NCBI GenBank assembly: GCA_046496285.1
Contig: JAWOHF010000310.1
Location: forward strand, 1-38,255
Origin: Candidatus Aminicenantes bacterium
Lineage (GTDB): Bacteria; Acidobacteriota; Aminicenantia; Aminicenantales; Saccharicenantaceae
Length of the DNA stretch: 38,255 nt
Direction: 5' to 3'
How positions within the stretch are numbered: the first letter of the stretch is position 1; every line of letters begins with the position of its first letter. The position numbers and the translations under genes are program-made. This document shows positions 23,422 through 38,255 of this stretch, piece by piece. Under the pieces are notes generated by a model. That model saw only the letters and a program-made list of their open reading frames with translations. It had not been told where the DNA came from and did no database searches.

Positions 23422-25032
<1,611 letters not shown>

Positions 25033-25620: not shown

Positions 25621-25621
25621 G

Positions 25622-26521
25622 TTATCCCTCGTAGACCTTGTACTTCGCGCCCAGCCGCTCCTGGTAATGGTCGTTCATCGCCTGGAGGTAGGTCGGCCGC
25701 TCGACGTCGACGAACTTGCCGACGAGCATCCTGTCGCGCAGGCGGATGTCGGCATCCTTGGTGCTGGCCCCGTTCTGGATATCGCTGTTCTCGCAGTACC
25801 AGCGCAGCCTGTCGAGCCCGTCCCCCATCTTCTGCTGGCGCTCGAAGATCGTCGGGCAGGGGGCGATGATCTCGACGAACGAGAACCCCGGCTTCTGGAT
25901 GGCCTCGACCATGGAGTTGGTCTGGTTGTAGACGTGGAGGGAGGTCCACCGGGCGACATAGACCGCGCCGACCGATTCGGCCAGGAAGGGCAGATTGAAA
26001 GGGAATTCGTAGCTGCCGAAGGGCGCGGTGGACAGGACGGACCCTTCTGGGGTCGTCGAGGCCATCTGGCCGCCGGTCATGGCGTAGTTGAAGTTGTTGA
26101 CGCAGATGACCGTGATGTCGATGTTCCGCCGGGCGGCGTTGATGAAATGGTTGCCGCCGATGGCGATGATGTCGCCGTCCCCGCTGAAGACGATGACCTT
26201 GAGCTTGGGGTTGGCCAGCTTCAGGCCGGTGGCGAAGGGGATGGCCCGGCCGTGGGTCGTGTGGAAAGAGTCGACCTTGACGTAGCCGGCGACGCGCCCC
26301 GTGCAGCCGATGCCCGAGACGACCACGACCTGATCGAGCGGGATCTGGCATTTCTCCAGGGCCTTGGCGAAGCAGTTGACGCTGACGCCGATGCCGCACG
26401 TGGAGCACCAGATGTGGGGCATGCGGTCCATGCGCAGGAAATCGTCCATCGGATGGCTTCCCGGATGGAAATCAGGGCTTGGGCTCAATGACGCTTTTTG
26501 GAGTTCGTTCAGGACAGACAC
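25622..26521 (-). CDS. korB: 2-oxoacid:ferredoxin oxidoreductase, beta (TPP-binding) subunit
   Basis: 299 aa. WCSTCGIG cluster motif, SGIGCTGR, and the TPP motif GDGDIIAIGGNHFINAARRN. The GTG start overlaps the korA 3' end by 13 nt; an internal ATG (M25) is an alternative start. Confidence 0.9.
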   Translation of the reverse strand: MSVLNELQKASLSPSPDFHPGSHPMDDFLRMDRMPHIWCSTCGIGVSVNCFAKALEKCQIPLDQVVVVSGIGCTGRVAGYVKVDSFHTTHGRAIPFATGLKLANPKLKVIVFSGDGDIIAIGGNHFINAARRNIDITVICVNNFNYAMTGGQMASTTPEGSVLSTAPFGSYEFPFNLPFLAESVGAVYVARWTSLHVYNQTNSMVEAIQKPGFSFVEIIAPCPTIFERQQKMGDGLDRLRWYCENSDIQNGASTKDADIRLRDRMLVGKFVDVERPTYLQAMNDHYQERLGAKYKVYEG

Positions 26522-27678
26522 CGGTAGGCCTCCTCGATCTTTTTGACGATATCCCCGATCTCGTGGACCGTTCCGCCGCCGTGGCCGGCCAGGACGACCG
26601 GGGCCTTGCCGCGGGCCGCGCGCTCCACCTCGTAGAAGATCTGGCCGTAGTTCATCTCAGCCATGACCAGGGCCTTGCCCTGGCAGGCCAGCTCAAAGAT
26701 GCGGGGCTCCGGGAAAGGCCAGACGACGATGAGCCGGAGCATGCCGACCTTGATGCCCTTGGCCCGGGCCGCCTCGACGGCCTCGACGGCGACCCGGGAG
26801 GTGATGCCGTAGGTGACGAGGACGACGTCGGCGTCCTCGACGCCGGTCTCTTCGAAGCGCCAGATCTTGGGAGCGTTGAGCCGGATCTTGTCGACCAGGC
26901 GGCGGACGAGCTGTTCCTGGACCTCGGGGTTCATGGCCGGATAACCCTTGAAATCGTGGGTCAGCCCGGTCACGTGCAGCCGATATCCGTCCCCGGCCTT
27001 GAACATTTCCGGGATCATGTCCGGGCCCGGCTTGAAGGGCAGGTACTCTCCCGGCGGCAGCGTCGTGTAGCGCCGCGGCGTGATCTCGATCTGGTCGGCC
27101 GGAGGGATGACGACCCGCTCCATCATGTGCCCGACGCACTCGTCCATCATGAACATGACCGGCACGCGGTACTGCTCCGAGAGGTTGAAGGCGTCGATGG
27201 TCAGGTCGAAGCACTCCTGGGGGGAGTTGGGCGAGATGGCGATGATCTCGTAATCGCCGTGGGACCCCCAGCGGGCCTGCATCATGTCGGCTTGGCCGGG
27301 CAGGGTGGGCAGGCCCGTCGACGGGCCGCCGCGCTGGACGTCGACGAAAACGCAGGGGACCTCGGTCATGGCCGCCAGGCCGATGTGCTCCATCATCAGG
27401 GAGAAGCCCGGGCCGCTGGTGACGGTCATGGCCTTCTTGCCGGCCCATACGGCGCCCTGGATGACGATCGACGCCGCCAGCTCGTCCTCCATCTGGATGA
27501 AGAGCGCGCCCTCGACCATCGGGGCCCGGCGGGCGAAGCGCTCCACGACCTCGGTCGAGGGCGTGATGGGGTAGCCGCCGACGAACCGGCACCCGGCCGC
27601 CAAGGCGCCCTCGCAACAGGCGTGGTCCCCGTCGATGTAATGGGGCCCGGTCAGGACTCCTTTGGGATCGGCTTTCAT
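26509..27678 (-). CDS. korA: 2-oxoacid:ferredoxin oxidoreductase, alpha subunit
   Basis: ORF 26509..27852 trimmed to ATG 27678, which overlaps the korD stop (ATGA). 389 aa. GDHACCEGALAAGCRF.GGYPITPSTE is the typical alpha-subunit N-terminus. Confidence 0.9.
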   Translation of the reverse strand: MKADPKGVLTGPHYIDGDHACCEGALAAGCRFVGGYPITPSTEVVERFARRAPMVEGALFIQMEDELAASIVIQGAVWAGKKAMTVTSGPGFSLMMEHIGLAAMTEVPCVFVDVQRGGPSTGLPTLPGQADMMQARWGSHGDYEIIAISPNSPQECFDLTIDAFNLSEQYRVPVMFMMDECVGHMMERVVIPPADQIEITPRRYTTLPPGEYLPFKPGPDMIPEMFKAGDGYRLHVTGLTHDFKGYPAMNPEVQEQLVRRLVDKIRLNAPKIWRFEETGVEDADVVLVTYGITSRVAVEAVEAARAKGIKVGMLRLIVVWPFPEPRIFELACQGKALVMAEMNYGQIFYEVERAARGKAPVVLAGHGGGTVHEIGDIVKKIEEAYRCLS

Positions 27679-27953
27679 GGCTTTTCTCCCGTATTGGGCT
27701 CGTAGGTATAGATGGCGAACTCGGGACAGATCATCCGGCAGAAGCCGCAGTTGACGCAGAGCTCGGGTTTTACGATCTCCGGCGGGTGGTAGCCCTTGAG
27801 GTTGTACTTCTTGGAAATGATCAGGACCTGGTGCGGGCAGTACTCGACGCAAAAGCCGCAGCCCTTGCAGCGCTCCTCCAGGATGACGATCTCGCCGTGA
27901 GGGGTCTCCGGCTTGGGAAAGCCGAACGGTTTTTCTCTTTGCCTTACCGGCAT
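27675..27953 (-). CDS. korD: 2-oxoacid:ferredoxin oxidoreductase, delta (2x[4Fe-4S] ferredoxin) subunit
   Basis: ORF 27675..28517 trimmed to ATG 27953. 92 aa with two C-x2-C-x2-C-x3-CP motifs (CKGCGFCVEYCP, CVNCGFCRMICP). Its position ahead of korA is typical of four-subunit enzymes. Confidence 0.85.
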   Translation of the reverse strand: MPVRQREKPFGFPKPETPHGEIVILEERCKGCGFCVEYCPHQVLIISKKYNLKGYHPPEIVKPELCVNCGFCRMICPEFAIYTYEPNTGEKP

Positions 27954-27973: not shown

Positions 27974-29647
27974 TTACCGAAGCGTCCCGTGATACTTCGT
28001 CGTCAGCTGCTTTTTCCGGACCTCGGGGTTGGAATAGTCCGGCAGGAGCATCGGCGCAACGCGGCCGTCCACGGGAACGCCGGCACTGTCGAGCGCCTTG
28101 TGATAGGCCCGGACGTGGTCCAGGGACAGGGACCCGTCCTTGAACGCCGACTTGGCGTATTCGGCCGCTCTGCATCCGGCGATCCGGCCGAAGACGACGA
28201 CGTCGAGCAGGGAGTTGCCCATCAGGCGGTTCTCCCCGTGGATGCCTCCGCTGGCCTCGCCGGCGACGAACAGGCCGGGCACGACCGTTTCGGTCCGCTG
28301 GTTGATCTGCAGGCCCCCGTTCTGGTAGTGGAGGGTCGGATAGACGAGCATGGGCTCCTTGGTGATGTCGATCCCGTAGCGGTGGAACAGGATCCACTTG
28401 CCGGGGAACTCCTTGCGGACCGTCCCTTCGCCCTTGAGGACGTCGATCATCGGCGAGTCGAGCCAGACGCCGAACTTGCCGGTCGGGGTGGGCACTCCCT
28501 TGCCTCTTTCCAGGCATTCCCGGATGAAGGCCGAAGCTTCGACGTCCCGGGGCTCGCGCTCGTAGACGAACTGCTCGCCGTCGATGTTGAGGACGTTGGC
28601 CCCCGCCCCGCGGACCTTCTCGGTGATCAGCAGGCCTTCGGCCTGCTCGGGGAAGACGGCCCCCGTCGGATGGTACTGGACCGTGTGCAGGAACCTCAGG
28701 GGCACCCCGGCCCAGTAGCCCATGATCAGCCCGTCACCCGTGGCCCCGTAGTGGTTGGTGGTCATGAAGTCCTGGATGTGGAGCCGGCCCGAGCCCCCGG
28801 TGGCCATGACCACGGCCTTGGCCTTGACCAGGAAATACTCCTCGGTCTCGAGGTTGTAGAGGACCGCTCCGGCGCAGGCCCCGTGGGCGTTGAGGATAAG
28901 CTCGACGGCCGGCGAGAACTCGAGGACCTGGATGTCGTCGGGATGGTTCTTGACCTCGTCGCGCAGGGTCCGCATGATCTCCGCGCCGGTGATGTCGCCC
29001 GCGTAGTGCATGCGCTTGCGGGAAGTGCCGCCGCCGTGCATGGCCTTGAGCCGGCCGTCATCGTACTTGGAGAACATCGCCCCCTGCTTCTCGAGCCAGG
29101 CCATGACCTTGGGGGCCTCGACGACCAGGGTCTCGACGAGCTCGGGGTCGTTCTTGAAATGCCCCCCGCCCATGGCGTCCAGGTAGTGGAAGTAGGGCGA
29201 GTCCTTGTCGGTCTTGATCGCCGCCTGGATGCCCCCTTCGGCCATCATCGTATTGGCGTCGCCCAGGCGGAGCTTTGTGGCGATGAGGACCTTGGCGCCG
29301 TTCTCTCGGGCCAGGAGAGCCGCCGAAGCCCCCGCCCCGCCGCCCCCGATGACCAGGATGTCGGTCTCGTAATCGACGCGGGTGAGGTCCACGGCCTCGG
29401 GATCGAGGCGGCTCTTGGCGTGGATCAGGCTGACCATCTCCTTGGCGATCCGGTAGCCCTTGTCGGGCCCGACCAGGATCTCGCTCCGGCCGTCCTCCTT
29501 GAAATCGGGGTGGTACTTGAGGATGGCCTTGCGCTCCTCGAGGGACATAGGCGGGAACTCCTCCCCCTTTCGCTTCTTCTCGACGCGGGCCGGGCGGGTC
29601 TTCTCGACCTTCTTGATGAGTTCCTTCAATTCAGGGGTGTAGGGCAT
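27974..29647 (-). CDS. Fumarate reductase/succinate dehydrogenase-like flavoprotein (FAD_binding_2 family, soluble-type signatures, non-covalent FAD)
   Basis: 557 aa. The dinucleotide fold DILVIGGGGAGASAAL begins only at about residue 96. DANTMMAEGGIQAA has Asn where SdhA/FrdA carry the FAD-linking His (RSHTVAAEGG). Also TEKVRGAGANVLN (catalytic Arg region), VQYHPTG, and GLFVAGEASGGIHGENRLMGNSLLD. The C-terminal tail is shorter than in SdhA. Confidence 0.85.
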   Translation of the reverse strand: MPYTPELKELIKKVEKTRPARVEKKRKGEEFPPMSLEERKAILKYHPDFKEDGRSEILVGPDKGYRIAKEMVSLIHAKSRLDPEAVDLTRVDYETDILVIGGGGAGASAALLARENGAKVLIATKLRLGDANTMMAEGGIQAAIKTDKDSPYFHYLDAMGGGHFKNDPELVETLVVEAPKVMAWLEKQGAMFSKYDDGRLKAMHGGGTSRKRMHYAGDITGAEIMRTLRDEVKNHPDDIQVLEFSPAVELILNAHGACAGAVLYNLETEEYFLVKAKAVVMATGGSGRLHIQDFMTTNHYGATGDGLIMGYWAGVPLRFLHTVQYHPTGAVFPEQAEGLLITEKVRGAGANVLNIDGEQFVYEREPRDVEASAFIRECLERGKGVPTPTGKFGVWLDSPMIDVLKGEGTVRKEFPGKWILFHRYGIDITKEPMLVYPTLHYQNGGLQINQRTETVVPGLFVAGEASGGIHGENRLMGNSLLDVVVFGRIAGCRAAEYAKSAFKDGSLSLDHVRAYHKALDSAGVPVDGRVAPMLLPDYSNPEVRKKQLTTKYHGTLR

Positions 29648-29650
29648 GGT

Positions 29651-30430
29651 TCATTCTCCCAGAAAGGACTTGTCGGTCGGTGCCCAGGATTCGTCGGCCA
29701 TGTCGGGCTCGATCTCCAGGCTCTTATAGATCTTCTTGAGGGTCTCCAGGTCCTTCTTCTTGAGCTCCTGGAGAGCCTTGTCGTACTTCTTTCCCTCCAC
29801 ATTCTTGACGGCCTCGGCCAGGTGCTTGGCCTTGGGGGCCAGGTGGCGGGCGTAGAGCCGGCGGGCCAGGATGCCGATGTTGTACTGGACCTCCTCGGCC
29901 GGGCAGCGGGCCGCGCACAGTCCGCACATGACGCAGTCGAAGGAGCTCTGGGCCACGGCCGTGAGATCGCCCTGGATGGCCTTGGAGATGTAGCCCATGA
30001 CGTCGATGTCCATGGGGCAGCTCCGCGTACAGGTCCCGCAGCCGACGCACTTGAAGACCTCGGGGTAGAGGGCGGCGATCGTCCCCCCGACCGCGGGCAG
30101 CGTCTCGATGTCGTAGACGGCCTTGTTGCCGGGGAAGAAGGGCAGCTGGGCGATGTACATGTCGGGCTGGACCACGGTCTGGCAGGCCAGGCCGACCTCG
30201 ATCCGGTAGGAGCCTGGGAAGCGGTAGACCGTGCCGCAGGCGCCGCAGATGCCGCCCCGGCAGCCGCAGCCGCGGACGAGCTGGTAGCCGGCGTACTCGA
30301 GCGCCTTCTGGATCGTCAGCGAGGCCGGGACTTCGTAACGCTTCCCCATGACGAAGATGGGGACGAGGCTCGCCTCGGTGTCCTTCGCCTTGGCGACGGC
30401 CTTCTTCGGTTTGGATGCCGTTTTACTCAT
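29651..30430 (-). CDS. SdhB/FrdB-like iron-sulfur subunit ([2Fe-2S]-like plus two [4Fe-4S]-type motifs)
   Basis: 259 aa. An N-terminal ferredoxin-like domain with CGCRGGICGACG, then CVGCGTCTRSCP and CVMCGLCAARCP. Lys-rich N- and C-termini. It starts 8 nt inside the mvhD 3' end and ends 3 nt before the flavoprotein ATG. Confidence 0.8.
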   Translation of the reverse strand: MSKTASKPKKAVAKAKDTEASLVPIFVMGKRYEVPASLTIQKALEYAGYQLVRGCGCRGGICGACGTVYRFPGSYRIEVGLACQTVVQPDMYIAQLPFFPGNKAVYDIETLPAVGGTIAALYPEVFKCVGCGTCTRSCPMDIDVMGYISKAIQGDLTAVAQSSFDCVMCGLCAARCPAEEVQYNIGILARRLYARHLAPKAKHLAEAVKNVEGKKYDKALQELKKKDLETLKKIYKSLEIEPDMADESWAPTDKSFLGE

Positions 30431-30866
30431 CTTTGACCACCTCTCGGACTAAAGCTTTATCGTTCAGGTCGAGGGGCCCCATGGCCCGGATCTGCTCGGT
30501 GAACTCATCCATGGTCTCGGCGTATCTTCGGCCTTCCGCGGCCGAGATCCATTCCAGCCGCAGTCGTCCCGGTTCGATCCCCAGGTCGCCCAGCATCTTC
30601 TTGAAGAGGGCCACCCGGCGCAGGGTCTTGTAGTTGCCCTCGACGTAGTGGCAGTCGCCGGGGTGGCAGCCGCCGATGAAAACCCCGTCGGCCCCCTCCT
30701 TGAACGCGTAGAGGATGTGTTGGGGGTCGACCCGGCTGGAGCACATCACCCGCATGTTGATGGTGTTGGCGACGTGTTGGATGCGCGAGGTGCCGGCCAG
30801 GTCGGCCGCCGAACTGGTGCACCACTTGCACAGGAAGCACATGATTTGCGGTTCGAACATCATCAT
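30423..30866 (-). CDS. mvhD: MvhD-like (methyl-viologen-reducing hydrogenase delta subunit family) [2Fe-2S] protein
   Basis: 147 aa. FLCKWC, RVMCSSRVDP, and GADGVFIGGCHPGDCHY are the characteristic MvhD/FlpD motifs. The ATG overlaps the hdrA stop (ATGA). Confidence 0.88.
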   Translation of the reverse strand: MMMFEPQIMCFLCKWCTSSAADLAGTSRIQHVANTINMRVMCSSRVDPQHILYAFKEGADGVFIGGCHPGDCHYVEGNYKTLRRVALFKKMLGDLGIEPGRLRLEWISAAEGRRYAETMDEFTEQIRAMGPLDLNDKALVREVVKDE

Positions 30867-32842
30867 TCCCTCAGCATGGCTCTAAGCATGGAAAATATCT
30901 GATCGTCGGTCTGGTTGCGCTGCTGGGCGGCGCCCGTCGGACAGGCGGCGGCGCAGGCCCCGCAGCCCTCGCAGAGGATCTCGTTGACGACGACAACGCC
31001 CCGGTCCGGGTCGAGGGTCCGGGCCCCATACGGACACATCGTGATGCAGATGCCGCAGCCCGAGCAGAGCTCGTCGTTGACCGGGACGACCGTGGGTTCG
31101 TGGCTGAGCTCTTTCTGGGCGAACAGGTCGCCGACCTTGGCCGCCGCGGCCGAGGCCTGGGAGACGGCCTCCGGGATGTCCTTGGGGCCGTGGGCGCAGC
31201 CGGCCAGGAAGAACCCGGCGTTCAGGCTCTCGACCGGCCGCAGCTTGGGGTGGGCCTCGGCCACGAAGCCGTGGATGTCGGTCGAGATCTTGAGCTTCTT
31301 CAGGAGGTCTTGGACGCCTTCGGTCTTGACCATGGCCATGGCCAGGACGACCATGTCGGCCTCGATCTCGACCTTCTTGCCGGTCAAGGTGTCCACGCCC
31401 CAGACGATGAGCTTGTCGCCCTCCTTGAAGATCTTGGAGACCTTGCCCCGGATATAGAGGACCTTGTCGTCCTCGACGGTCCTCTGATAGAACTCGTCGA
31501 AGGCCTTGCCGCCCGTCCGGACGTCGATGTAGAAGACCGTGGCCTGACCGTCATGGACGCGGTGCTTGTAGAGCATGGCATGCTTGGCCGTGTACATGCA
31601 GCAGATCTTGGAGCAGTACGGCAGGTGCTTCTCCGTGTCCCGGGAGCCGCAGCACTGGACGAAGACGATCGATTTCGGGACCTTGCCGTCCGACGGACGC
31701 CGGACGACGCCGCCCGTCGGACCCGAGGCCGACAGGATACGCTCGAACTCCAGGCCGTTGACGACGTCCTCGTACTTCTCCCCGCCGAACTCGCCCAGGG
31801 CCTGCATCGTATACAGGTCGTAGCCGGTGGCCACGACGATGGCCCCGACCTTCTCCTCGATGAACGTCTCTTTCATGTCGTAGTCGATGGCCTTCTTCTC
31901 GCAGACGTCCTTGCACTTGCCGCAGCGCACCGGCGACAGGCCGAGGCAGTGCTCCTCGTCCAGGGTGTAGGTGCCCGGGATAGCCTGGGGGAAGGGCATA
32001 TAGACGGCCTTGCGGAAGGACAGGCCCATGTTGAACTCGTCGGGGACGATCTGGGGACAGACCTTCTCGCACTCGCCGCAAAGGTTGCACAGCTTCTCGT
32101 CCACGAAGCGGGGCTTCTTCTTGATGCGGACCTTGAAGTTGCCGATGAACCCCGACACGGAATCGACCTCGTGATAGGTCAGGAGCTTGATGCGCGGATG
32201 GCGGGAGACCTCGACCATCTTGGGGGTCAGGATGCACTGGGAGCAATCCAGGGTCGGGAAGGTCTCCGACAGCTGGATCATCTTGCCGCCGATCGACGGG
32301 TTCTTCTCGACCAGGATGACCTCGTATCCGTGGTCGGCGATGTCCAGGGCGGCCTGCAGGCCGCTGACGCCGCCGCCGATGACCAGGGCCCGTTTGTTGA
32401 CGTCGACCTTGATGGGCTCCAGGTTCTCGTTCCGGATGGCCTTGGCGACGTGGGCCTTGACGATCTTGATGGCCTTCTTGGTGGCCTTGTCCTTGTCCGA
32501 GTGGACCCAGCTGTTCTGTTCGCGGATGTTGGCGATCTCGATCTGGTAGGGGTTCAGGCCGGCCAGGCGGGCCGCTTCCTGGAAGGTCTTCTCGTGGAGG
32601 GTCGGCGAGCAGGCGGCGACGATGATGCCGTCGAGGTGCTTCTCCTTGATGGTGTCGATGATCATCTGCTGGCCGGGGTCCGAGCACATGTAGACGTAAT
32701 CCGTGGACATGCTGACACCGGGGGTGTCCTTCAAGGCCTCGGCCACCTTCTTGACGTCGACGACGCCGGCGATGTTCACCCCGCAGTGGCAGACGAACAG
32801 GCCGATGCGCTTGTCCTCTTTCTTCTTGGTCATGACGGTCAT
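30863..32842 (-). CDS. hdrA: Heterodisulfide reductase subunit A-like flavoprotein
   Basis: 659 aa. N-terminal FVCHCGVNI, FAD fold ALVIGGGVSGLQAAL, inserted ferredoxin motif CNLCGECEKVCP, the HdrA signature VQCCGSRD...YCSKICCMY, and a C-terminal 2x[4Fe-4S] region (CSGCGICITMCP, CEGCGACAAACP). Confidence 0.92.
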   Translation of the reverse strand: MTVMTKKKEDKRIGLFVCHCGVNIAGVVDVKKVAEALKDTPGVSMSTDYVYMCSDPGQQMIIDTIKEKHLDGIIVAACSPTLHEKTFQEAARLAGLNPYQIEIANIREQNSWVHSDKDKATKKAIKIVKAHVAKAIRNENLEPIKVDVNKRALVIGGGVSGLQAALDIADHGYEVILVEKNPSIGGKMIQLSETFPTLDCSQCILTPKMVEVSRHPRIKLLTYHEVDSVSGFIGNFKVRIKKKPRFVDEKLCNLCGECEKVCPQIVPDEFNMGLSFRKAVYMPFPQAIPGTYTLDEEHCLGLSPVRCGKCKDVCEKKAIDYDMKETFIEEKVGAIVVATGYDLYTMQALGEFGGEKYEDVVNGLEFERILSASGPTGGVVRRPSDGKVPKSIVFVQCCGSRDTEKHLPYCSKICCMYTAKHAMLYKHRVHDGQATVFYIDVRTGGKAFDEFYQRTVEDDKVLYIRGKVSKIFKEGDKLIVWGVDTLTGKKVEIEADMVVLAMAMVKTEGVQDLLKKLKISTDIHGFVAEAHPKLRPVESLNAGFFLAGCAHGPKDIPEAVSQASAAAAKVGDLFAQKELSHEPTVVPVNDELCSGCGICITMCPYGARTLDPDRGVVVVNEILCEGCGACAAACPTGAAQQRNQTDDQIFSMLRAMLRE

Positions 32843-33771
32843 GTCCTCACCTCGGTCGTCGGAACTTCCTCGAACAGGCTGTCGGCGGGAACGGCGTGCT
32901 CCCCGAGGCCCAGGACCTCACGGTCGACCCCCAGGGCCCAGGCCAGGATCTGGGTGAAGTACAGGACGGGGAGCCCCGAGAAGTCCAGGAACTTCTCTTT
33001 GATGACCGCCTGGCGGCTGTCCATGTTGTAGAAGCACAGGGGGCAGGTCACGGTGACCGCCCGGGCGCCCTCCATCTGGGCCGCCCGCAGGACGCGGTAG
33101 GAGGCCTCGGTGGCCGCGTCGGGGAGGGAGACGGAGAGATAGGAGCCGCAGCATTCCTGCTTGAATGGATAGTCGACGGCCGAGCAACCGACGGCTTCCA
33201 GGAAATCCTCGAAGATGCGCGGCGAATCCGGCTCGTCGAAAGCCATCTCCTCCTGCGGGCGCAGGAGGCGGCAGCCGTAATAGGGGGCGACCGCCAGGCC
33301 CTTGAAATCGCGCTTAAGGCGGGACTTGATCTTGGGCGTGCCGACCCGGTCTCGCAAGTACTCCAGGAGATGGAGGACCTGGACCTCGCCGTTATAATCC
33401 TCGAAATCCGTCGTCCTGTCCTTGGTCAGCGGATCGATCTGGATGTCGTCCCGCAGGAACGCGTTGATGCGCTTGCGCTTGAGCGGGTCGTCCTGGAGGG
33501 CCTTGTTGGCCCGTTTCAGGACGGCGAAGCAGAACGAGCAGGTCGTCACGAGGACGTCCCCGCCCTCGTCGCGGACCTGGCGCAGGACCCTGATCGGGGC
33601 GGCCAGCCCGACGATCTTCTCCTCGGTCAGGGGGTATTCGGCGCCGCAGCAGGTCCAGCCCTCGGGTTCGACGAGCTCGACGTCCAGGCGCTTCATGGCC
33701 TCCCGAGTGGAGATGTCCAAGGCCACCGCCTTCTCCTTGAGCGTGCATCCCGGATAGTAATGGAGTTTCAT
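32839..33771 (-). CDS. hdrB: Heterodisulfide reductase subunit B-like protein (two CCG domains)
   Basis: 310 aa. MKLHYYPGCTL, two CCG motifs (GWTCCGAEY and QECCGSYL), and C-x..-C partners (TCSFCF, TCPLCF). The stop overlaps the hdrA start (ATGA). Confidence 0.88.
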   Translation of the reverse strand: MKLHYYPGCTLKEKAVALDISTREAMKRLDVELVEPEGWTCCGAEYPLTEEKIVGLAAPIRVLRQVRDEGGDVLVTTCSFCFAVLKRANKALQDDPLKRKRINAFLRDDIQIDPLTKDRTTDFEDYNGEVQVLHLLEYLRDRVGTPKIKSRLKRDFKGLAVAPYYGCRLLRPQEEMAFDEPDSPRIFEDFLEAVGCSAVDYPFKQECCGSYLSVSLPDAATEASYRVLRAAQMEGARAVTVTCPLCFYNMDSRQAVIKEKFLDFSGLPVLYFTQILAWALGVDREVLGLGEHAVPADSLFEEVPTTEVRT

Positions 33772-33780
33772 GGGCTTCCC

Positions 33781-34188
33781 TTATTTGGCGAATTTCCGGC
33801 AGAGGGCGACCATGACCTGCTGGGGCAGTTCCTTGGCCAGCTCCGGAGAGATCTCCCCCGGGCCGAAGGCGTCCTTGCCCTTGGGGTCCAGGATGTGGCG
33901 GACGGCCTCCATGACCCGGGCCATGTCGATGCCCTTGGGACACCGGGATTCGCACGTGAAGCAGGAGGCGCACAGGAAAAGGGTCTTGGAGCGGAGGACG
34001 TCCTCCAGGAGACCCATCTGGACCAGACGGATGATCTGGTTGGGCAGCAGGTCCATCTCCGAGGCCATGGGGCAGCCGGCGGAGCACCGCCCGCACTGAT
34101 AGCAGGCGAAGACGTTCTCGCCGGACAGCTCCTCGATCCTGTCGATGAACGTCCGCTGTTCGGGACCGGCCTTGAGCTTGACTCTCAT
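33781..34188 (-). CDS. hdrC: Heterodisulfide reductase subunit C-like protein (2x[4Fe-4S])
   Basis: 135 aa. CYQCGRCSAGCP and CASCFTCESRCP with the intervening helical region typical of HdrC. GAGGAGAGAG SD. Confidence 0.85.
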   Translation of the reverse strand: MRVKLKAGPEQRTFIDRIEELSGENVFACYQCGRCSAGCPMASEMDLLPNQIIRLVQMGLLEDVLRSKTLFLCASCFTCESRCPKGIDMARVMEAVRHILDPKGKDAFGPGEISPELAKELPQQVMVALCRKFAK

Positions 34189-34220: not shown

Positions 34221-34249
34221 GATATATAAAAATGGCATTATGACGTCAA
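34221..34249 (-). promoter_or_regulatory. Putative internal promoter ahead of hdrC (TTGACG-17 nt-TATATC) overlapping palindrome TGACGTCA
   Basis: On the minus strand, -35 TTGACG is at 34249..34244 (inside the last codons of the HEAT gene) and -10 TATATC at 34226..34221. It lies in the only sizeable AT-rich gap (49 nt) of the long minus-strand array. The perfect 8-bp palindrome TGACGTCA at 34241..34248 overlaps the -35. Sequence match only. Confidence 0.35.
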
Positions 34250-36073
34250 CGGCTTTTCTAACTTCTTGAGGGCGGTCTCGATGACGTCCCGGACCTGCTT
34301 CCTTTCACGTTTCCGCGCCAGGGCGCTCTTCAAACAGCCGACGGCCCTCTTGTCGCCGATCTCTCCCAGGAGCCGAGCGGCCCGGAAACGCGTCGTCCAC
34401 AAAGGGCTTTTCAAGGCCTCCGTGAGCGGGTCCACGGCGTCCCGTCCGAAGTTGAGGAGGGCCATCTCGGCGCTCTCCCGGACGCTCCAGTGGGCGTCGG
34501 CCATGGCCCTGAGCAGGGGCAAGATGGACCTCCGGTCCTGAAAGTTCCCCAGGAGCCGGGCCGATTGGACCCGGACCTCCCTCGAGGCGTCCTTGAGCCC
34601 GCGAAGGCCCGTCTCGAGAACGGACGGGTCGCCCAAGCCGACCGTTCTCAGGCGCCGGAGGGCTTCCCGGCGGATGAACGCGGCGCAGTCCTTGCGGGCG
34701 ATCCGGACGAGGTGCCGCACGGCGGCCGGGCCGCCCAACTTGCCCAAGGCGCGGACGGCCTCGAAGCGGACGTTCTCCGAGTTGTCCTTTAAGGAGGGCA
34801 GGATCTTGGGGGCGAAAGAGGGGTCGGCGATCTCGCCCAGGACCTGGAGAGCGCAACAGCGGCCCCAGGCCGCGCATCCGATCTGGAACAAGGCCGCCGA
34901 GGCCGCTTCCTGGACATCGGGCAGGCCTTGATCGACGATGTCCTTGAGCAGGGGCACGGCCCGGTGGTCCTCCAGCCCGCCGAGGGCCTTGATGGCCCTC
35001 ATCTGGAGCTCGGGGTGTTCCTTGTCGCAAACATCCCTCTTCAGCTTCTCGATGTCGGAGGTATTGAACGATAGAGTGGCCAGAAGGTGGCGGATGGCCA
35101 GGGGCCCGAGGCGGACGAGGGCGGACACGGCCGACTGCCGGACGATGAAGTAGCTGCTCCGGAGGTAGCTGATCAGGGCCGGCACGGACTTCGGGTCCCC
35201 GATCTGACCAAGACACCGGAGGAAAGCCCGCTGGGCGAACTTGTCCCTTTCCCGGGACAGGGCGTTGAGCAGCGGCACGACGGCCTGCTTGCCGAAAAGG
35301 ACGATGGCCTCGGCCGCCGACTCCTGGACCTTTTCCACGTTGTCCTGGATCATCAGGACCAGGGGCTCGATGCTGACCTTGTCCCCGATCTGGCCCAGGG
35401 CCTGACAGGCGCTGGCCCGGACCGCGGCGTTCTCGTCTTGGAGCAGTTCCAGAGCGTAGGGCGTCGAGGCATGGGACCTCATCTTGCCCAAGGCCCGGGC
35501 GGCGTTGGACCGGATGGTGTCCGAGGAGATCTCCAGGGCGTCGTGGAGCCAATGGAGGCTCTCCGGCCCGATCTCCTGGAAACCTTCCATGGCCAGCTCG
35601 ACGATCTCCTCGTTGTCCAGGGAGAACATGAAGACCAGGATCCGGGCCAGCCGGACGTCCTTCCGGGCGACGATGTCCTTGACCTTGGCCATCAGCCCGG
35701 TGACAGCCTCCGTGCGGACGATCCACTCCGGGTCCTCGGCGGCCTTGAGGAGGTGGTCGATGACCCGGTAGTCGCCCAGGCGGGCGACAGCGGCCACGGC
35801 CGCCCATCGGATCTGGTGGTGAGGGGACCGGAAGATCTTCGGCTTGATGAGCTCTTCGATGCCATCCGCCCGGCCGTGCCGCCCCAGGGCGACGACGGCC
35901 GCGTGCTGGACGCTGGGGTTCGGGTCGTTGAGCTTCTCGACGAGGAGGCGATAGACGTCGTCCCCCTTCTTGTACCCGAGCTCCATGATCGCGGCCCGGA
36001 CGGCGGACGCATCCTCAGCGTTCCGCGCGACACGGAACAGGCCGTCCAGCGAAGAGATAGCCGCTTTTTGCAC
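34238..36073 (-). CDS. HEAT-repeat (PBS-lyase-type) protein
   Basis: 611 aa made of about 15 reiterations of the pattern D....VR..A..ALG.[IL]GD..A...L...L (for example NPSVQHAAVVALGRHGRADGIEELI, SENVRFEAVRALGKLGGPAAVRHLV). GTG start one nt after the upstream stop. No catalytic motif recognised. Confidence 0.85.
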   Translation of the reverse strand: MQKAAISSLDGLFRVARNAEDASAVRAAIMELGYKKGDDVYRLLVEKLNDPNPSVQHAAVVALGRHGRADGIEELIKPKIFRSPHHQIRWAAVAAVARLGDYRVIDHLLKAAEDPEWIVRTEAVTGLMAKVKDIVARKDVRLARILVFMFSLDNEEIVELAMEGFQEIGPESLHWLHDALEISSDTIRSNAARALGKMRSHASTPYALELLQDENAAVRASACQALGQIGDKVSIEPLVLMIQDNVEKVQESAAEAIVLFGKQAVVPLLNALSRERDKFAQRAFLRCLGQIGDPKSVPALISYLRSSYFIVRQSAVSALVRLGPLAIRHLLATLSFNTSDIEKLKRDVCDKEHPELQMRAIKALGGLEDHRAVPLLKDIVDQGLPDVQEAASAALFQIGCAAWGRCCALQVLGEIADPSFAPKILPSLKDNSENVRFEAVRALGKLGGPAAVRHLVRIARKDCAAFIRREALRRLRTVGLGDPSVLETGLRGLKDASREVRVQSARLLGNFQDRRSILPLLRAMADAHWSVRESAEMALLNFGRDAVDPLTEALKSPLWTTRFRAARLLGEIGDKRAVGCLKSALARKRERKQVRDVIETALKKLEKPLTS

Positions 36074-37969: not shown

Positions 37970-37971
37970 AG

Positions 37972-38255
37972 GCGGCGCTCGCGAGGGAGCGGGGGCTCGA
38001 GCCGCTCGCGGCCTACCTCCGCGCCCAGGAGGACACCGCGCCATCGCGGGAGGCGCTCATCGCCCCGTTCGTCGATCCGGCCGGGGAGGTACCGACCGAG
38101 GAGGCCGCGCTCCGGGGAGCCTGCGACATCCTCGCCGAGGAGTGGGCCGAGGACCCGGCGATCCGCTCCTGGCTCCGTCCCCTCGCCGCCGCCGGGAGCG
38201 TCGTCGCGAAGGTCCGGAAGGGCTGGAAGGGAAAGCCGAGCAAGTTCGAGACGTA
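37972..38255 (+). CDS. tex: Tex-like transcription accessory protein, internal fragment (5' ~110 codons missing, 3' end off window)
   Basis: The + frame from 37972 reads AALARERGLEPLAAYLRAQEDTAPSREALIAPFVDPAGEVPTEEAALRGACDILAEEWAEDPAIRSWLRPLAAAGSVVAKVRKGWKGKPSKFETY. It is colinear with E. coli Tex/YhgF residues ~115-210 (...IAIEAGLEPLADLL...[27 protein letters not shown]...VVSGKEEEGAKFRDYF). An in-frame TAG at 37969..37971 directly precedes it. There is no start codon or N-terminal Tex region. Confidence 0.8.

What the first reader, a model, noticed from the sequence alone, without database searches (positions are those of the whole stretch)
27974..34188. HdrCBA-MvhD translationally coupled to an anchor-less, soluble-type fumarate-reductase-like flavoprotein/FeS pair: candidate electron-bifurcating fumarate (enoate) reductase
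**Seen in the sequence.**
- Six consecutive minus-strand genes run hdrC, hdrB, hdrA, mvhD, an FrdB-like FeS protein, then an FrdA-like flavoprotein.
- The junctions are +9, -4 (ATGA), -4 (ATGA), -8 and +3 nt, which implies co-translation and equal stoichiometry.
- The flavoprotein has Asn where SdhA/FrdA carry the covalent-FAD His (DANTMMAEGG versus RSHTVAAEGG).
- It has soluble-FRD-like signatures (E.VRG.GA..N, GG[IV]HG.NRL).
- No SdhC/D-type membrane anchor is encoded nearby.
- No MvhAG hydrogenase, formate dehydrogenase or FlxABCD-type donor module is present anywhere in the 38-kb window.

**Established knowledge.**
- HdrA is the flavin-based electron-bifurcating subunit of MvhADG-HdrABC.
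- HdrB CCG domains carry the non-cubane clusters that reduce the high-potential acceptor.
- Methanogen thiol:fumarate reductase TfrAB fuses an Frd module to an HdrD-like CCG domain.
- As I recall, the soluble five-subunit fumarate reductase of Hydrogenobacter contains Hdr-like subunits.

**Inference.** Here a full HdrABC+MvhD set appears wired to a fumarate/enoate reductase. Exergonic fumarate reduction could then drive ferredoxin reduction, or the reverse (confurcation for succinate oxidation). To my knowledge this exact six-subunit combination is not a characterised enzyme.
Basis: partly seen in the sequence, partly recalled or inferred. Interest (0 to 1): 0.75.

Follow-up and report, generated by a model that had tools for sequence, protein, structure and literature searches.

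The report
Hydrogenase-Hdr-linked soluble fumarate reductase operon
Six tightly packed genes in an uncultured Aminicenantes bacterium pair a complete methanogen-type electron-splitting module (HdrABC plus MvhD) with an unusual soluble fumarate reductase, and close relatives add a hydrogenase, so the set probably uses hydrogen to reduce fumarate and ferredoxin together, an untested enzyme already hypothesised in an NADH-driven form.

Summary
The six genes and their junctions (+9, -4, -4, -8, +3 nt) are real. HdrA is full-length and methanogen-like (705 bits to 5ODC_A). HdrB has two complete CCG domains and MvhD is canonical.

The flavoprotein belongs to a distinct, widespread clade nearest TfrA. 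All 76 members examined have Asn at the covalent-FAD His site and keep every fumarate-binding and catalytic residue. It has no C-terminal SdhA domain and carries a 95-aa N-terminal extension.

The FeS partner has SdhB-like architecture (2Fe-2S plus two 4Fe-4S) and is fused to the flavoprotein in two Dehalococcoidales loci. The pair recurs next to hdrCB (27 loci), hdrCBA-mvhD, or HdrABC/HdrL. Neighbours are fumarase, 2-oxoglutarate:ferredoxin oxidoreductase and, in relatives, succinyl-CoA synthetase.

The 'missing' donor is a window-edge effect. All 15 informative relatives carrying mvhD also carry mvhG-mvhA [NiFe]-hydrogenase genes in cis. The window breaks at 37969, inside ackA, where relatives 96% identical over most of the shared stretch continue into mvhA.

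Best reading: an MvhAGD-HdrABC-FrdAB complex, 2 H2 + fumarate + Fd(ox) -> succinate + Fd(red), feeding the co-encoded 2-oxoglutarate synthase.

The concept is not new. Flx-Hdr-TfrAB-Kor models exist for tubeworm symbionts and P. thermosuccinogenes. I found no paper describing the hydrogenase version, and no version has been assayed.

The parts
33781..34188 (-). hdrC-like subunit with two [4Fe-4S] clusters (135 aa)
   Evidence: Fer4_17/Fer4_8 hits. HdrC TIGR03290 scores 71 bits, below its cut-off of 160. It is the first gene of the conserved hdrC-hdrB unit seen in 4-gene and 6-gene loci.
32839..33771 (-). hdrB-like subunit with two CCG domains, sites for two non-cubane [4Fe-4S] clusters (310 aa)
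   Evidence: PF02754 CCG x2. 138 bits to methanogen HdrB 8rvu_b over its full length. Also 130 bits to the SdhE anchor model of MFR. Each half carries a C...CCG...CxxC motif. ATGA overlap with hdrA.
30863..32842 (-). hdrA, FAD subunit with six [4Fe-4S] motifs; putative bifurcating flavoprotein (659 aa)
   Evidence: 705 bits to M. wolfeii HdrA 5ODC_A, residues 9-658 against 2-651, with all cluster Cys motifs aligned. HdrA2 NCBIfam model 818 bits, below its cut-off of 1100.
30423..30866 (-). mvhD, [2Fe-2S] adaptor between hydrogenase and HdrA (147 aa)
   Evidence: FlpD 169 bits. 160 bits to MvhD 5odc_D. Its presence tracks with mvhGA in cis: 15 of 15 informative loci have both, and L007 and L032 have neither.
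29651..30430 (-). SdhB/FrdB/TfrB-N-like FeS subunit: 2Fe-2S domain plus two [4Fe-4S] (259 aa)
   Evidence: Invariant C57/C62/C65/C83, C128/131/134/138 and C166/169/172/176. Fer2 hits in 35 of 36 members and Fer2_3 in 11. Weak SdhB hits with a family profile. Always immediately upstream of the flavoprotein, and fused to it in L034 and L055.
27974..29647 (-). TfrA/FrdA-like flavoprotein with a fumarate-reductase catalytic core, non-covalent FAD, no C-terminal SdhA domain, and a 95-aa N-terminal extension (557 aa)
   Evidence: PF00890 covers residues 96-480. Best NCBIfam model is TfrA, 353 bits, below its cut-off of 718. Aligns to E. coli FrdA and M. smegmatis SdhA. Foldseek top hits are 7d6v_A and 1kf6_A. 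N132, H326, T342, E343, R346, R367, H440 and R474 are invariant or nearly so in 76 sequences.
27675..27953 (-). korD-like delta ferredoxin of the 2-oxoacid:ferredoxin oxidoreductase (92 aa)
   Evidence: OGOR_delta 60 bits and OorD 51 bits. Starts 20 nt after the flavoprotein stop.
25069..27678 (-). OFOR alpha (26509-27678), beta (25622-26521) and gamma (25069-25620), 2-oxoglutarate type
   Evidence: POR_N/PFOR_II, TPP_enzyme_C and POR domains. PRK08659 scores 539 bits, above its cut-off. The next-best alpha and the best beta model are 2-oxoglutarate enzymes.
23422..25032 (-). class I (Fe-S) fumarate hydratase (536 aa)
   Evidence: Fumerase and Fumerase_C domains. Class I fumarate hydratase model 852 bits.
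21671..23413 (-). aldehyde:ferredoxin oxidoreductase, last gene of the same-strand array (context)
   Evidence: AFOR_N and AFOR_C domains. The likely start, MKGFWNK, lies 9 nt after the fumarase stop. The L084 homologue is 580 aa.
34238..36073 (-). HEAT-repeat protein directly upstream of hdrC (611 aa; context, role unknown)
   Evidence: HEAT_2 x9. Resembles the HEAT tail of PRK13800 flavoprotein-HEAT fusions. Conserved in Aminicenantes loci.
36584..37969 (-). acetate-kinase-like gene lacking its first 17 codons; the array breaks here
   Evidence: Acetate_kinase 472 bits, starting at profile position 25. L001 and L084 begin MKVLVLNSGSSSVKFQF, which the window lacks.
37970..38255 (+). internal fragment of a Tex-like gene; the breakpoint replaces the mvhA-mvhG genes of relatives
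   Evidence: PF22706 Tex_central_region, E 1.5e-8. No similarity to L083 or L084 beyond 37969. The junction was not found in metagenome contigs.

Best explanation
**What it is.** The six genes encode the HdrABC-MvhD core and the terminal reductase (FrdB-like plus TfrA/FrdA-like) of a soluble, quinone-independent fumarate reductase. It is built on the methanogen Mvh-Hdr electron-bifurcation scaffold. In relatives the operon also encodes the MvhA/MvhG [NiFe]-hydrogenase. In this window that part is cut off by a breakpoint at 37969.

**Proposed mechanism (inferred).**
1. H2 is oxidised at MvhA.
2. Electrons pass through the MvhG clusters and the MvhD [2Fe-2S] to the HdrA FAD.
3. The FAD bifurcates. 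One electron goes uphill through the HdrA ferredoxin domain to ferredoxin.
4. The other goes downhill through HdrC, the HdrB non-cubane clusters, the FrdB-like clusters and the non-covalent FAD of the flavoprotein to fumarate.
5. Net: 2 H2 + fumarate + Fd(ox) -> succinate + Fd(red)2- + 2 H+. Fumarate (E0' about +33 mV) takes the place of CoM-S-S-CoB.
6. The reduced ferredoxin is what the co-encoded 2-oxoglutarate:ferredoxin oxidoreductase needs. The operon therefore reads as a reductive branch: malate -> fumarate -> succinate (-> succinyl-CoA) -> 2-oxoglutarate.

**Shown versus inferred.** Shown: gene content, domain and residue conservation, synteny and natural fusions. Inferred: complex formation, the wiring between HdrB and FrdB, bifurcation, and direction.
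For: - **Scaffold.** Canonical full-length HdrA, HdrB, HdrC and MvhD.
- **Substrate.** The flavoprotein keeps all FrdA fumarate-binding and catalytic residues, invariant across 76 members from about 10 phyla.
- **Direction.** Asn at the covalent-FAD His is invariant. By established knowledge (E. coli FrdA H44 variants, Blaut et al. 1989, recalled), non-covalent FAD keeps fumarate reduction but loses succinate oxidation.
- **FeS partner.** It is always adjacent, and it is fused to the flavoprotein in L034 and L055. It has no CCG domain of its own, so it must take electrons from a partner.
- **Core unit.** hdrC-hdrB-FeS-Flavo is a conserved 4-gene unit in 27 loci. The window's HdrB is 38-51% identical to those HdrBs, against 27-31% to the HdrB of HdrL-type clusters.
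- **Independent joins to HdrA modules.** Three are seen or reported: MvhD/MvhAG, HdrL/MvhD, and Flx in the literature (PMC7282089, PMC6315080).
- **Hydrogenase in cis.** mvhG-mvhA is present in 15 of 15 informative loci with mvhD. It lies directly upstream of hdrC in L081, directly downstream of the flavoprotein in L016, L029, L035, L036, L039 and L040, and upstream of ackA in L001, L002, L003, L005, L006, L015, L083 and L084. The MvhA of L081 scores 384 bits to 5odc_F.
- **Loci without mvhD** also lack mvhGA (L007, L032).
- **Pathway context.** Fumarase, 2-oxoglutarate-type OFOR and, in relatives, sucCD sit in the same strand array.
- **Proteomics.** FrdABEF of S. fumaroxidans rises during growth with fumarate (PMC5947623). 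It is probably the 4-gene form seen in L078 and L079, but that equivalence is inferred.
Against: - No biochemical data exist for any member.
- The window itself carries no hydrogenase, and its far end is a rearrangement or assembly chimera.
- All equivalog cut-offs (TfrA, SdhA, HdrA, HdrB, HdrC, dhsB) are missed.
- The FeS subunit is only weakly SdhB-like by sequence.
- AF2 models were of low confidence (pLDDT 58 and 60), and no multimer model could be run. The HdrB-FrdB contact is therefore untested.
- HdrB keeps both intact CCG sites, so a thiol/disulfide intermediate cannot be excluded.
- L007 and L032 have HdrABC-FrdAB without MvhD or a hydrogenase. HdrA may therefore also work with another donor, or without bifurcation.
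Confidence: 0.6

Rival explanations
1. Two-step thiol shuttle. MvhAGD-HdrABC is an ordinary bifurcating disulfide reductase acting on an unknown bacterial disulfide (a DsrC-like protein or a small thiol). HdrB/C together with FrdAB then acts as a split thiol:fumarate reductase that re-oxidises the thiol, as Mvh-Hdr plus Tfr do in methanogens. The net chemistry is the same, but fumarate is not wired directly to HdrA.
For: - HdrB keeps both complete CCG motifs.
- The flavoprotein's best model is TfrA. TfrB model regions match the FeS protein, HdrC and HdrB in turn.
- The 4-gene hdrCB-FeS-Flavo form exists without HdrA.
- Rubin-Blum et al. list DsrC-mediated transfer as an alternative (PMC6315080).
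Against: - Only one CCG protein is encoded, so the same HdrB would have to both reduce and re-oxidise the shuttle.
- No DsrC-like or thiol-carrier gene lies in the window or in L081/L084.
- The tight translational coupling of all six genes suggests a single complex.
Confidence: 0.2
2. Non-bifurcating fumarate reductase. HdrA (with or without MvhD) simply passes electrons from reduced ferredoxin, or from the hydrogenase, linearly to HdrBC-FrdAB. This would be a ferredoxin:fumarate or H2:fumarate oxidoreductase that re-oxidises the ferredoxin made by the neighbouring OFOR and AOR during fermentation, with succinate as an electron sink.
For: - L007 and L032 have hdrCBA-FeS-Flavo with neither mvhD nor a hydrogenase.
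- The operon also holds the ferredoxin-reducing enzymes OFOR and AOR, plus an acetate-kinase-like gene, a catabolic flavour.
- P. thermosuccinogenes uses its homologous 'succinate operon' in fermentation (PMC7282089).
Against: - Linear transfer from ferredoxin (about -450 mV) to fumarate (+33 mV) wastes about 90 kJ/mol.
- HdrA retains every domain of the bifurcating enzyme.
- Hydrogenase, HdrL or Flx donor modules recur with the pair (PMC6315080), which is the signature of a three-armed bifurcating system.
Confidence: 0.12
3. The flavoprotein/FeS pair acts on a different substrate (L-aspartate as in NadB, or another enoate or C4-dicarboxylate), or works as a donor dehydrogenase feeding HdrA through MvhD. 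The clustering with TCA genes would then be incidental.
For: - No equivalog cut-off is reached. NadB models score 282 bits against 353 for TfrA.
- The clade has a unique N-terminal extension and lacks the C-terminal domain.
- The gene order places FeS-Flavo next to mvhD.
Against: - The His/Arg/His/Arg quartet and the Thr-Glu of FrdA are invariant.
- NadB has no FeS partner.
- Fumarase, sucCD and 2-oxoglutarate OFOR are neighbours in several phyla.
- Succinate (+33 mV) is too oxidising to be a bifurcation donor.
- The pair associates with hdrCB even where mvhD is absent.
Confidence: 0.08

Closest known systems
MvhADG-HdrABC of hydrogenotrophic methanogens (structure 5ODC), together with thiol:fumarate reductase TfrAB of Methanothermobacter
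   Same: - HdrA, HdrB, HdrC and MvhD match full-length, with all cluster motifs. Relatives add an MvhA/G-type hydrogenase.
- TfrA is the best-scoring model for the flavoprotein. TfrB model regions map onto the FeS, HdrC and HdrB proteins.
- In methanogens the two enzymes together already give H2 + fumarate -> succinate with ferredoxin reduction.
   Different: - The host is a bacterium with no CoM/CoB.
- Tfr-like and Hdr parts share one HdrB/HdrC and are encoded as one translationally coupled unit. This suggests direct wiring rather than a heterodisulfide shuttle.
- All CoB-CoM equivalog cut-offs are missed.
HdrABC-FlxABCD-KorABCD-TfrAB gene clusters of tubeworm symbionts (Ca. Endoriftia, Escarpia symbiont) and Thioflavicoccus. 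A model, not a characterised enzyme (PMC6315080, PMC11636981, PMC13147460)
   Same: - hdrABC is interspersed with tfrAB-like and four-subunit korABCD genes.
- The proposal is that HdrA bifurcates electrons to fumarate reductase and, via ferredoxin, to 2-oxoglutarate synthase.
- Co-expression has been shown in Endoriftia.
   Different: - The donor module there is the NADH-oxidising FlxABCD. Here it is MvhD plus, in relatives, an MvhAG hydrogenase.
- The hosts here are anaerobic heterotroph-like candidate phyla (Aminicenantes, Fermentibacteria, Aegiribacteria, KSB1), with no ATP-citrate lyase in the cluster.
- Sequence relatedness of the two TfrAB sets was not tested here.
'Succinate operon' of Pseudoclostridium thermosuccinogenes (fumarase + Flx-Hdr + novel fumarate reductase; PMC7282089, citing the Koendjbiharie & van Kranenburg 2019 preprint)
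   Same: Fumarase, Hdr genes and a two-gene soluble fumarate reductase sit in one operon. The proposal is coupling of succinate formation to ferredoxin reduction. The operon is transcriptionally up about 4-fold under CO2 limitation.
   Different: The system is NADH/Flx-dependent, the host is a Firmicute fermenter, and there is no OFOR or hydrogenase in that operon. The preprint was not readable here, so family identity is unverified.
MetFV-HdrABC-MvhD methylene-H4F reductase of Moorella thermoacetica (PMC5861303)
   Same: A purified hexaheteromer in which HdrABC plus MvhD is joined to a two-subunit terminal reductase (a flavoprotein and a small FeS protein), with no hydrogenase encoded alongside. 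By my recollection the gene order is the same: hdrC-hdrB-hdrA-mvhD-FeS-reductase.
   Different: The terminal module is MetF/MetV rather than Frd-like, the donor is NADH, and the low-potential acceptor is still unidentified.
Type E succinate:quinone oxidoreductase / FrdABEF (S. fumaroxidans Sfum_4092-4095; Sulfolobus SdhABCD; Campylobacter MfrABE)
   Same: A flavoprotein and FeS subunit combine with a CCG-domain subunit (SdhE/FrdE, similar to HdrB) and a small fourth subunit, with no haem-b anchor. The window's HdrB scores 130 bits on the MFR SdhE model. Syntrophobacter loci L078 and L079 carry the 4-gene form. FrdABEF protein rises with fumarate (PMC5947623).
   Different: The window adds HdrA and MvhD between hdrB and the FeS gene. 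The flavoprotein lacks the covalent-FAD His and the C-terminal domain typical of SdhA. Identity of L078/L079 with Sfum_4092-4095 is inferred, not tested.
Soluble five-subunit NADH:fumarate reductase FrdABCDE of Hydrogenobacter thermophilus (Miura et al. 2008, cited in PMC13147460)
   Same: A soluble, quinone-independent fumarate reductase of the rTCA cycle, with extra electron-input subunits.
   Different: The donor is NADH, and it has no HdrA or MvhD.

Membership tests
SdhA/FrdA/NadB flavoprotein superfamily (PF00890 FAD_binding_2) | FAD-binding and capping domains matching PF00890 above the gathering score | tested here: met
   254.5 bits against a cut-off of 20.4, residues 96-480. Foldseek top hits are SdhA and FrdA chains.
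SdhA/FrdA/NadB flavoprotein superfamily (PF00890 FAD_binding_2) | Fumarate/succinate site: His232, Thr244, Glu245, Arg248, Arg287, His355, Arg390 (E. coli FrdA numbering) | tested here: met
   H326, T342, E343, R346, R367, H440 and R474 align in the phmmer alignment. All are invariant in 76 sequences, apart from one T-to-S change.
Canonical complex II flavoprotein (SdhA/FrdA of quinone-linked enzymes) | Covalent 8-alpha-N3-histidyl FAD (His44 of FrdA) | tested here: not met
   Asn132 is at this position. It is Asn in 76 of 76 family members.
Canonical complex II flavoprotein (SdhA/FrdA of quinone-linked enzymes) | C-terminal helical domain (PF02910 Succ_DH_flav_C) and NCBIfam sdhA/frdA cut-offs | tested here: not met
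   No PF02910 hit. TIGR01812 scores 301 against 567, and PRK09231 scores 239 against 854.
Canonical complex II flavoprotein (SdhA/FrdA of quinone-linked enzymes) | Membrane anchor SdhC/D or FrdC/D encoded alongside | tested here: not met
   No such gene is in the window or in L081/L084.
Thiol:fumarate reductase TfrAB (methanogens) | TfrA equivalog score | tested here: not met
   NF004900 is the best model, but scores 353 bits against a cut-off of 718.
Thiol:fumarate reductase TfrAB (methanogens) | TfrB: an SdhB-like FeS domain fused to a CCG (HdrB/D-like) thiol-oxidising domain | tested here: not met
   The FeS protein has no CCG domain. The CCG function is on a separate HdrB. TfrB model segments hit the FeS protein, HdrC and HdrB separately at 33-35 bits each.
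Thiol:fumarate reductase TfrAB (methanogens) | Uses CoM-SH and CoB-SH as electron donors | not testable with these tools
   Needs an enzyme assay. The host is a bacterium (Aminicenantes) not expected to make CoM/CoB (inference).
HdrABC-MvhADG type flavin-based electron-bifurcating complexes | Full-length HdrA with FAD domain, N-terminal cluster, inserted and C-terminal ferredoxin domains | tested here: met
   705 bits to 5ODC_A over residues 9-658 against 2-651, with all Cys motifs aligned.
HdrABC-MvhADG type flavin-based electron-bifurcating complexes | HdrB with two CCG motifs, and HdrC with two [4Fe-4S] | tested here: met
   CCG x2 at 75.5 bits. 138 bits to 8rvu_b. HdrC has Fer4_17/Fer4_8 hits. 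The equivalog cut-offs for the CoB-CoM enzyme are not reached.
HdrABC-MvhADG type flavin-based electron-bifurcating complexes | MvhD [2Fe-2S] adaptor | tested here: met
   FlpD 169 bits. 160 bits to 5odc_D.
HdrABC-MvhADG type flavin-based electron-bifurcating complexes | MvhA/MvhG [NiFe]-hydrogenase (or another donor module) encoded with the complex | tested here: not met
   Absent from the window. Present in cis in 15 of 15 informative relatives, including L083 and L084, which share 96% nucleotide identity with the window over most of the aligned stretch. The window breaks at 37969.
HdrABC-MvhADG type flavin-based electron-bifurcating complexes | Coupled reduction of ferredoxin and a high-potential acceptor (bifurcation activity) | not testable with these tools
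   Requires purified enzyme.
SdhB/FrdB iron-sulfur subunit | N-terminal plant-type [2Fe-2S] domain followed by a helical dicluster domain; TIGR00384 cut-off | tested here: inconclusive
   The architecture and invariant Cys pattern fit. TIGR00384 scores 33.5 bits against 88. A family profile finds SdhB chains only at E 5.6e-6 to 5e-5. The AF2 model is too poor (pLDDT 58) for a fold test. The second motif has four Cys, so a [4Fe-4S] takes the place of the [3Fe-4S].
Type E succinate:quinone oxidoreductase (SdhABEF / FrdABEF) | A CCG-domain subunit SdhE and a small SdhF in place of a haem-b anchor | tested here: inconclusive
   HdrB scores 130 bits on the MFR SdhE model, against a cut-off of 500. 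The 4-gene relatives fit the layout. The window adds HdrA and MvhD, which type E enzymes lack. Quinone use is untestable here.

The most novel reading that the evidence does not exclude
An eight-subunit MvhAGD-HdrABC-FrdAB enzyme in which fumarate directly replaces the heterodisulfide. Electrons would pass through HdrB's non-cubane clusters into an SdhB-like wire with no thiol intermediate. The reduced ferredoxin it makes from H2 would go straight to the co-encoded 2-oxoglutarate synthase. This would be a self-contained, quinone-free, H2-driven reductive TCA branch operating in supposedly fermentative candidate phyla (Aminicenantes, Fermentibacteria, Aegiribacteria, KSB1). It would also be a new class of flavin-based electron-bifurcating enzyme.
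Probability: 0.3. Interest if true: 0.8.

Novelty: new variant of a known kind. Interest (0 to 1): 0.6.

Why it matters
- **A gap in the list of bifurcating enzymes.** Fumarate reduction is strongly exergonic, but it has been known to conserve energy only through quinones and membranes. An Hdr-based bifurcating fumarate reductase would let quinone-free anaerobes capture that energy as reduced ferredoxin. No fumarate-linked enzyme is among the bifurcating enzymes catalogued in two 2018 reviews (PMC5861303, PMC6085437).
- **Ferredoxin supply for the reductive TCA cycle.** It would explain how the low-potential ferredoxin needed by 2-oxoglutarate synthase is supplied. Symbiont studies have so far addressed this only by gene-cluster models.
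- **A better test system.** The family is widespread: at least 589 species-level genomes by a capped scan. The hydrogenase version offers a simple assay with H2, fumarate and ferredoxin.
- **Annotation.** The FeS partner is currently mislabelled HdrC or ferredoxin in public annotation. Metabolic reconstructions therefore miss this enzyme.

Tried and rejected
**Led nowhere**
- AF2 of the FeS subunit (pLDDT 58) and of the flavoprotein (pLDDT 60, pTM 0.70). The available alignments were too shallow (at least 70% identity). The FeS model was not good enough for a fold search. The flavoprotein fold search only restated SdhA/FrdA homology.
- Sequence and profile searches of the FeS protein against the PDB mostly returned generic polyferredoxins.
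- An exact-sequence look-up of the window's own flavoprotein found nothing on record.
- An exact scan for the 37969/37970 junction in metagenome contigs found nothing. Whether it is a chimera or a real rearrangement is unresolved.
- The Koendjbiharie & van Kranenburg preprint is not held.
- A full-text search for 'bifurcating fumarate reductase' returned no paper.
- A multimer structure prediction is not possible with the tools on hand.

**Considered and rejected**
- **APS reductase/Qmo-type pairing.** The flavoprotein and FeS sizes and the top NCBIfam models do not fit.
- **L-aspartate oxidase.** NadB has no FeS partner and the context here is TCA.
- **Succinate-oxidising confurcation to H2.** It is thermodynamically conceivable only at very low H2, and the invariant loss of the covalent-FAD His disfavours it.
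- **Flavoprotein/FeS pair as the donor module docking on MvhD.** Succinate is too oxidising, the pair goes with hdrCB where mvhD is absent, and a hydrogenase fills the donor role in relatives.

Full report
**1. Observation**

The six minus-strand ORFs exist at the stated coordinates. They are hdrC 33781-34188, hdrB 32839-33771, hdrA 30863-32842, mvhD 30423-30866, an FeS protein 29651-30430 and a flavoprotein 27974-29647. The junctions are +9, -4 (ATGA), -4 (ATGA), -8 and +3 nt.

Pfam and NCBIfam give these assignments:
- HdrC-type dicluster domain
- two CCG domains in HdrB
- HdrA, with the HdrA2 model at 818 bits
- FlpD/MvhD at 169 bits
- FAD_binding_2 at 254 bits for the flavoprotein

Codon-position GC marks these ORFs as the coding frames in this 66% GC window.

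**2. The Hdr/MvhD half is canonical**

- HdrA aligns end to end with M. wolfeii HdrA. It scores 705 bits to 5ODC_A, residues 9-658 against 2-651, and every cluster-binding Cys motif is aligned.
- HdrB scores 138 bits to a methanogen HdrB and has two C...CCG...CxxC motifs.
- MvhD scores 160 bits to 5odc_D.
- None reaches the NCBIfam equivalog cut-offs for the CoB-CoM enzyme. That is expected for a bacterial paralogue with another substrate.

**3. The reductase half is a distinct clade of the fumarate reductase family**

*Flavoprotein*
- Its best model is TfrA at 353 bits, against a cut-off of 718. Next come an actinobacterial Sdh/Frd model (302), sdhA_frdA (301) and nadB (282).
- It matches only PF00890, at residues 96-480. 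It has no Succ_DH_flav_C domain.
- It carries a 95-aa N-terminal extension that is conserved across the family.
- In the alignment to E. coli FrdA, Asn132 replaces the covalent-FAD His.
- H326, T342, E343, R346, R367, H440 and R474 correspond to FrdA His232, Thr244, Glu245, Arg248, Arg287, His355 and Arg390.
- In 76 family sequences from about ten phyla all of these are invariant, apart from one Thr-to-Ser change.
- By established knowledge (E. coli FrdA His44 variants, Blaut et al. 1989, recalled), non-covalent FAD keeps fumarate reduction but abolishes succinate oxidation. The clade therefore looks committed to the reductive direction.

*FeS partner*
- It is only weakly SdhB-like by sequence.
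- Public sources call it 'heterodisulfide reductase subunit C' or 'ferredoxin'.
- 35 of 36 diverse members hit the Fer2 model in the N-terminal domain.
- Three Cys sets are invariant: C-x4-C-x2-C-x17-C and two C-x2-C-x2-C-x3-C motifs.
- This is SdhB/TfrB-N architecture with a [4Fe-4S] in place of the [3Fe-4S].
- In two Dehalococcoidales loci (L034, L055) the FeS protein and the flavoprotein are one polypeptide.

**4. Origin and spread**

The window comes from a Candidatus Aminicenantes bacterium. The best genome match is 94% identical. The hosts include Thermodesulfobacteriota, KSB1, Zixibacteria, Gemmatimonadota, Dehalococcoidia, Fermentibacteria, Aegiribacteria, Ignavibacteriales and Acidobacteriota.

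**5. Synteny**

I ran tblastn with the window's proteins against 80 loci with 10-kb flanks. The FeS gene lies directly upstream of the flavoprotein in nearly all of them. The automatic tally of arrangements gave:

| Arrangement | Loci | Notes |
|---|---|---|
| hdrC-hdrB-FeS-Flavo | 27 | Includes Syntrophobacter loci L078 and L079 |
| hdrC-hdrB-hdrA-mvhD-FeS-Flavo, as in the window | 10 complete | Three further loci are cut by contig ends (L004, L039, L040) |
| hdrA-hdrC-hdrB-HdrL-mvhD-FeS(379 aa)-FeS-Flavo-sucC-sucD | 11 | Syntrophales-like; HdrL is 1003 aa with NAD(P)-binding domains |
| Other layouts with hdr genes | 6 | Includes L007 and L032, which are hdrC-hdrB-hdrA-FeS-Flavo without mvhD |
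| No hdr gene in the upstream flank | 13 | The one inspected, Desulfomonilaceae L053, has multihaem cytochrome c and FeS genes instead |
| Too little upstream sequence (<2.5 kb) | 10 | Not classifiable |

- The Syntrophobacter 4-gene loci probably correspond to frdABEF (Sfum_4092-4095). That cluster was described as a type E fumarate reductase, and its proteins rise on fumarate (PMC3570798, PMC5947623). The equivalence is inferred.
- The window's HdrB is 38-51% identical to the HdrB of the 4-gene and other 6-gene loci. It is only 27-31% identical to the HdrB of HdrL-type clusters.
- The 6-gene form therefore looks like the 4-gene unit with hdrA-mvhD inserted. The HdrL form is an independent union.

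**6. The electron donor**

Relatives have one.

- **L081** (78% identical flavoprotein) reads mvhG-mvhA-hdrC-hdrB-hdrA-mvhD-FeS-Flavo-korDABC-sucCD-...-fumarase alpha and beta subunit genes-hycI. Its MvhA scores 384 bits to MvhA of 5ODC and 391 bits to the large subunit of another solved [NiFe]-hydrogenase, 7t2r.
- **Six-gene loci outside Aminicenantes** place mvhG-mvhA immediately downstream of the flavoprotein (L016, L029, L035, L036, L039, L040). A hycI-like gene lies within these loci in L016, L029, L035 and L036.
- **Aminicenantes loci** place mvhG-mvhA upstream of an acetate-kinase-like gene and a HEAT-repeat gene that precede hdrC (L001, L002, L003, L005, L006, L015, L083, L084).
- **L084** shows a clean same-strand array: mvhG, mvhA, ackA-like, a 165-aa ORF, HEAT, hdrCBA, mvhD, FeS, Flavo, korDABC, fumarase, AOR. 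Only 8 nt separate mvhA from the next gene.
- **Tally.** All 15 informative loci with mvhD have mvhGA in cis. The two loci that lack mvhD, L007 and L032, also lack mvhGA.

**7. Why the window lacks the hydrogenase**

- The window is 96.4% identical to L083 over 17978-37969. Against L084 it is 96.4% identical over 17968-34199 and 87.4% over 34232-37969.
- In both comparisons similarity ends at 37969.
- That point is codon 18 of the acetate-kinase-like gene. The N-terminal MKVLVLNSGSSSVKFQF of L001 and L084 is missing.
- Bases 37970-38255 instead encode, on the other strand, an internal piece of a Tex-like protein (PF22706, E 1.5e-8).
- The junction was not found elsewhere. It is either a real rearrangement or an assembly chimera.
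- Either way, 'no hydrogenase' is an edge effect and not a property of the system.

**8. Pathway context**

Downstream on the same strand lie:
- a delta ferredoxin (27675-27953)
- OFOR alpha, beta and gamma subunits, whose closest specific models are 2-oxoglutarate enzymes
- a class I fumarase (23422-25032)
- an aldehyde:ferredoxin oxidoreductase

Relatives add succinyl-CoA synthetase. This is the run of steps malate -> fumarate -> succinate -> succinyl-CoA -> 2-oxoglutarate.

**9. Mechanism (inference)**

The most economical reading is an MvhAGD-HdrABC complex whose high-potential arm ends in a Tfr/Frd-like module instead of at a heterodisulfide.

1. H2 is oxidised at MvhA.
2. Electrons pass through MvhG and MvhD to the HdrA FAD.
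3. The FAD bifurcates to ferredoxin and, via HdrC, HdrB, the FeS subunit and the flavoprotein FAD, to fumarate.

- With E0' values of -414 mV (H2), +33 mV (fumarate/succinate, PMC5861303) and about -450 mV (ferredoxin), the exergonic half gives about -86 kJ/mol. That is more than the heterodisulfide provides in methanogens.
- The ferredoxin produced is the reductant that 2-oxoglutarate synthase requires. This would explain why kor genes travel with the cluster.

What remains open:
- whether HdrB passes electrons directly or through a bound or free thiol/disulfide
- whether all eight proteins form one particle
- what donor serves the forms without MvhD

**10. Comparison with the literature**

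- **Tubeworm symbionts.** Rubin-Blum et al. 2019 proposed an HdrABC-FlxABCD-KorABCD-TfrAB complex in tubeworm symbionts and Thioflavicoccus. In it HdrA bifurcates NADH electrons to fumarate reductase and to 2-oxoglutarate synthase (PMC6315080).
- **Endoriftia.** Mitchell et al. 2024 showed co-expression of that cluster (PMC11636981). A 2026 survey repeats the model (PMC13147460).
- **P. thermosuccinogenes.** Koendjbiharie and colleagues proposed the same for the 'succinate operon' (PMC7282089).
- **Closest purified enzyme.** The nearest purified architectural analogue is MetFV-HdrABC-MvhD of Moorella (PMC5861303).
- **What I did not find.** No paper describes the hydrogenase-linked version or its distribution in these candidate phyla, and none gives a biochemical test of any version. 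The library searched is incomplete.

**11. Verdict**

- The interpretation, a candidate electron-bifurcating fumarate reductase, is supported by comparative genomics. It is strengthened by finding the hydrogenase donor.
- The reverse, succinate-oxidising mode is unlikely.
- The novelty is that of a new variant (H2/Mvh-driven, broadly distributed) of an already hypothesised but uncharacterised enzyme type.
- Interest is 0.6.

Noticed in passing
window 37960-38255: There is a breakpoint at 37969/37970. The acetate-kinase-like gene loses its first 17 codons and abuts an internal fragment of a Tex-like gene on the opposite strand. Near-identical relatives (L083, L084) continue into mvhA-mvhG at this point. 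This is a possible assembly chimera or a genuine rearrangement.
   Followed up: partly
window 34238-36073 (-): A 611-aa HEAT/PBS-lyase-repeat protein sits between the acetate-kinase-like gene and hdrC and is conserved in Aminicenantes loci. It resembles the HEAT tail of the NCBIfam PRK13800 family, in which a fumarate-reductase-type flavoprotein is fused to HEAT repeats. This hints at a functional link to this flavoprotein class.
   Followed up: no
L034:1913-4357 and L055:6918-9410: In two Dehalococcoidales genomes the FeS subunit and the flavoprotein are fused into one ORF of 815 and 831 aa. This is a natural fusion supporting their physical association.
   Followed up: partly
L007 and L032: A five-gene variant, hdrC-hdrB-hdrA-FeS-Flavo, lacks mvhD and has no hydrogenase genes in the flanks. 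HdrA may therefore serve this reductase with another donor, or without bifurcation.
   Followed up: partly
L053:6080-11680: In Desulfomonilaceae the same FeS/flavoprotein pair is preceded by multihaem cytochrome c7/c3-like and FeS proteins instead of hdr genes. An NrfD/molybdopterin oxidoreductase set lies downstream. This may be a cytochrome-linked version.
   Followed up: no
L009:859-13937: The Syntrophales-type cluster is hdrA-hdrC-hdrB-HdrL (1003 aa, NAD(P)-binding)-mvhD-FeS (379 aa)-FeS-Flavo-sucC-sucD. It resembles HdrABC/HdrL of S. fumaroxidans (Sfum_0819-0824) joined to the reductase pair, and points to an NAD(P)H-driven form.
   Followed up: partly
window 36075-38044 (-): The acetate-kinase-like protein is about 80 aa longer than the Pfam domain (479 aa in L084). 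A small ORF with no Pfam or NCBIfam match follows it (208 aa as listed here, 165 aa in L084). The two ORFs overlap by 118 nt in the window.
   Followed up: no
P0121-P0240 (homologues of window 29651-30430): Public annotations name the SdhB-like FeS subunit 'heterodisulfide reductase subunit C', 'ferredoxin', 'NADH:ubiquinone oxidoreductase subunit I' or 'hypothetical'. Automated metabolic reconstructions will therefore not recognise this fumarate reductase.
   Followed up: no
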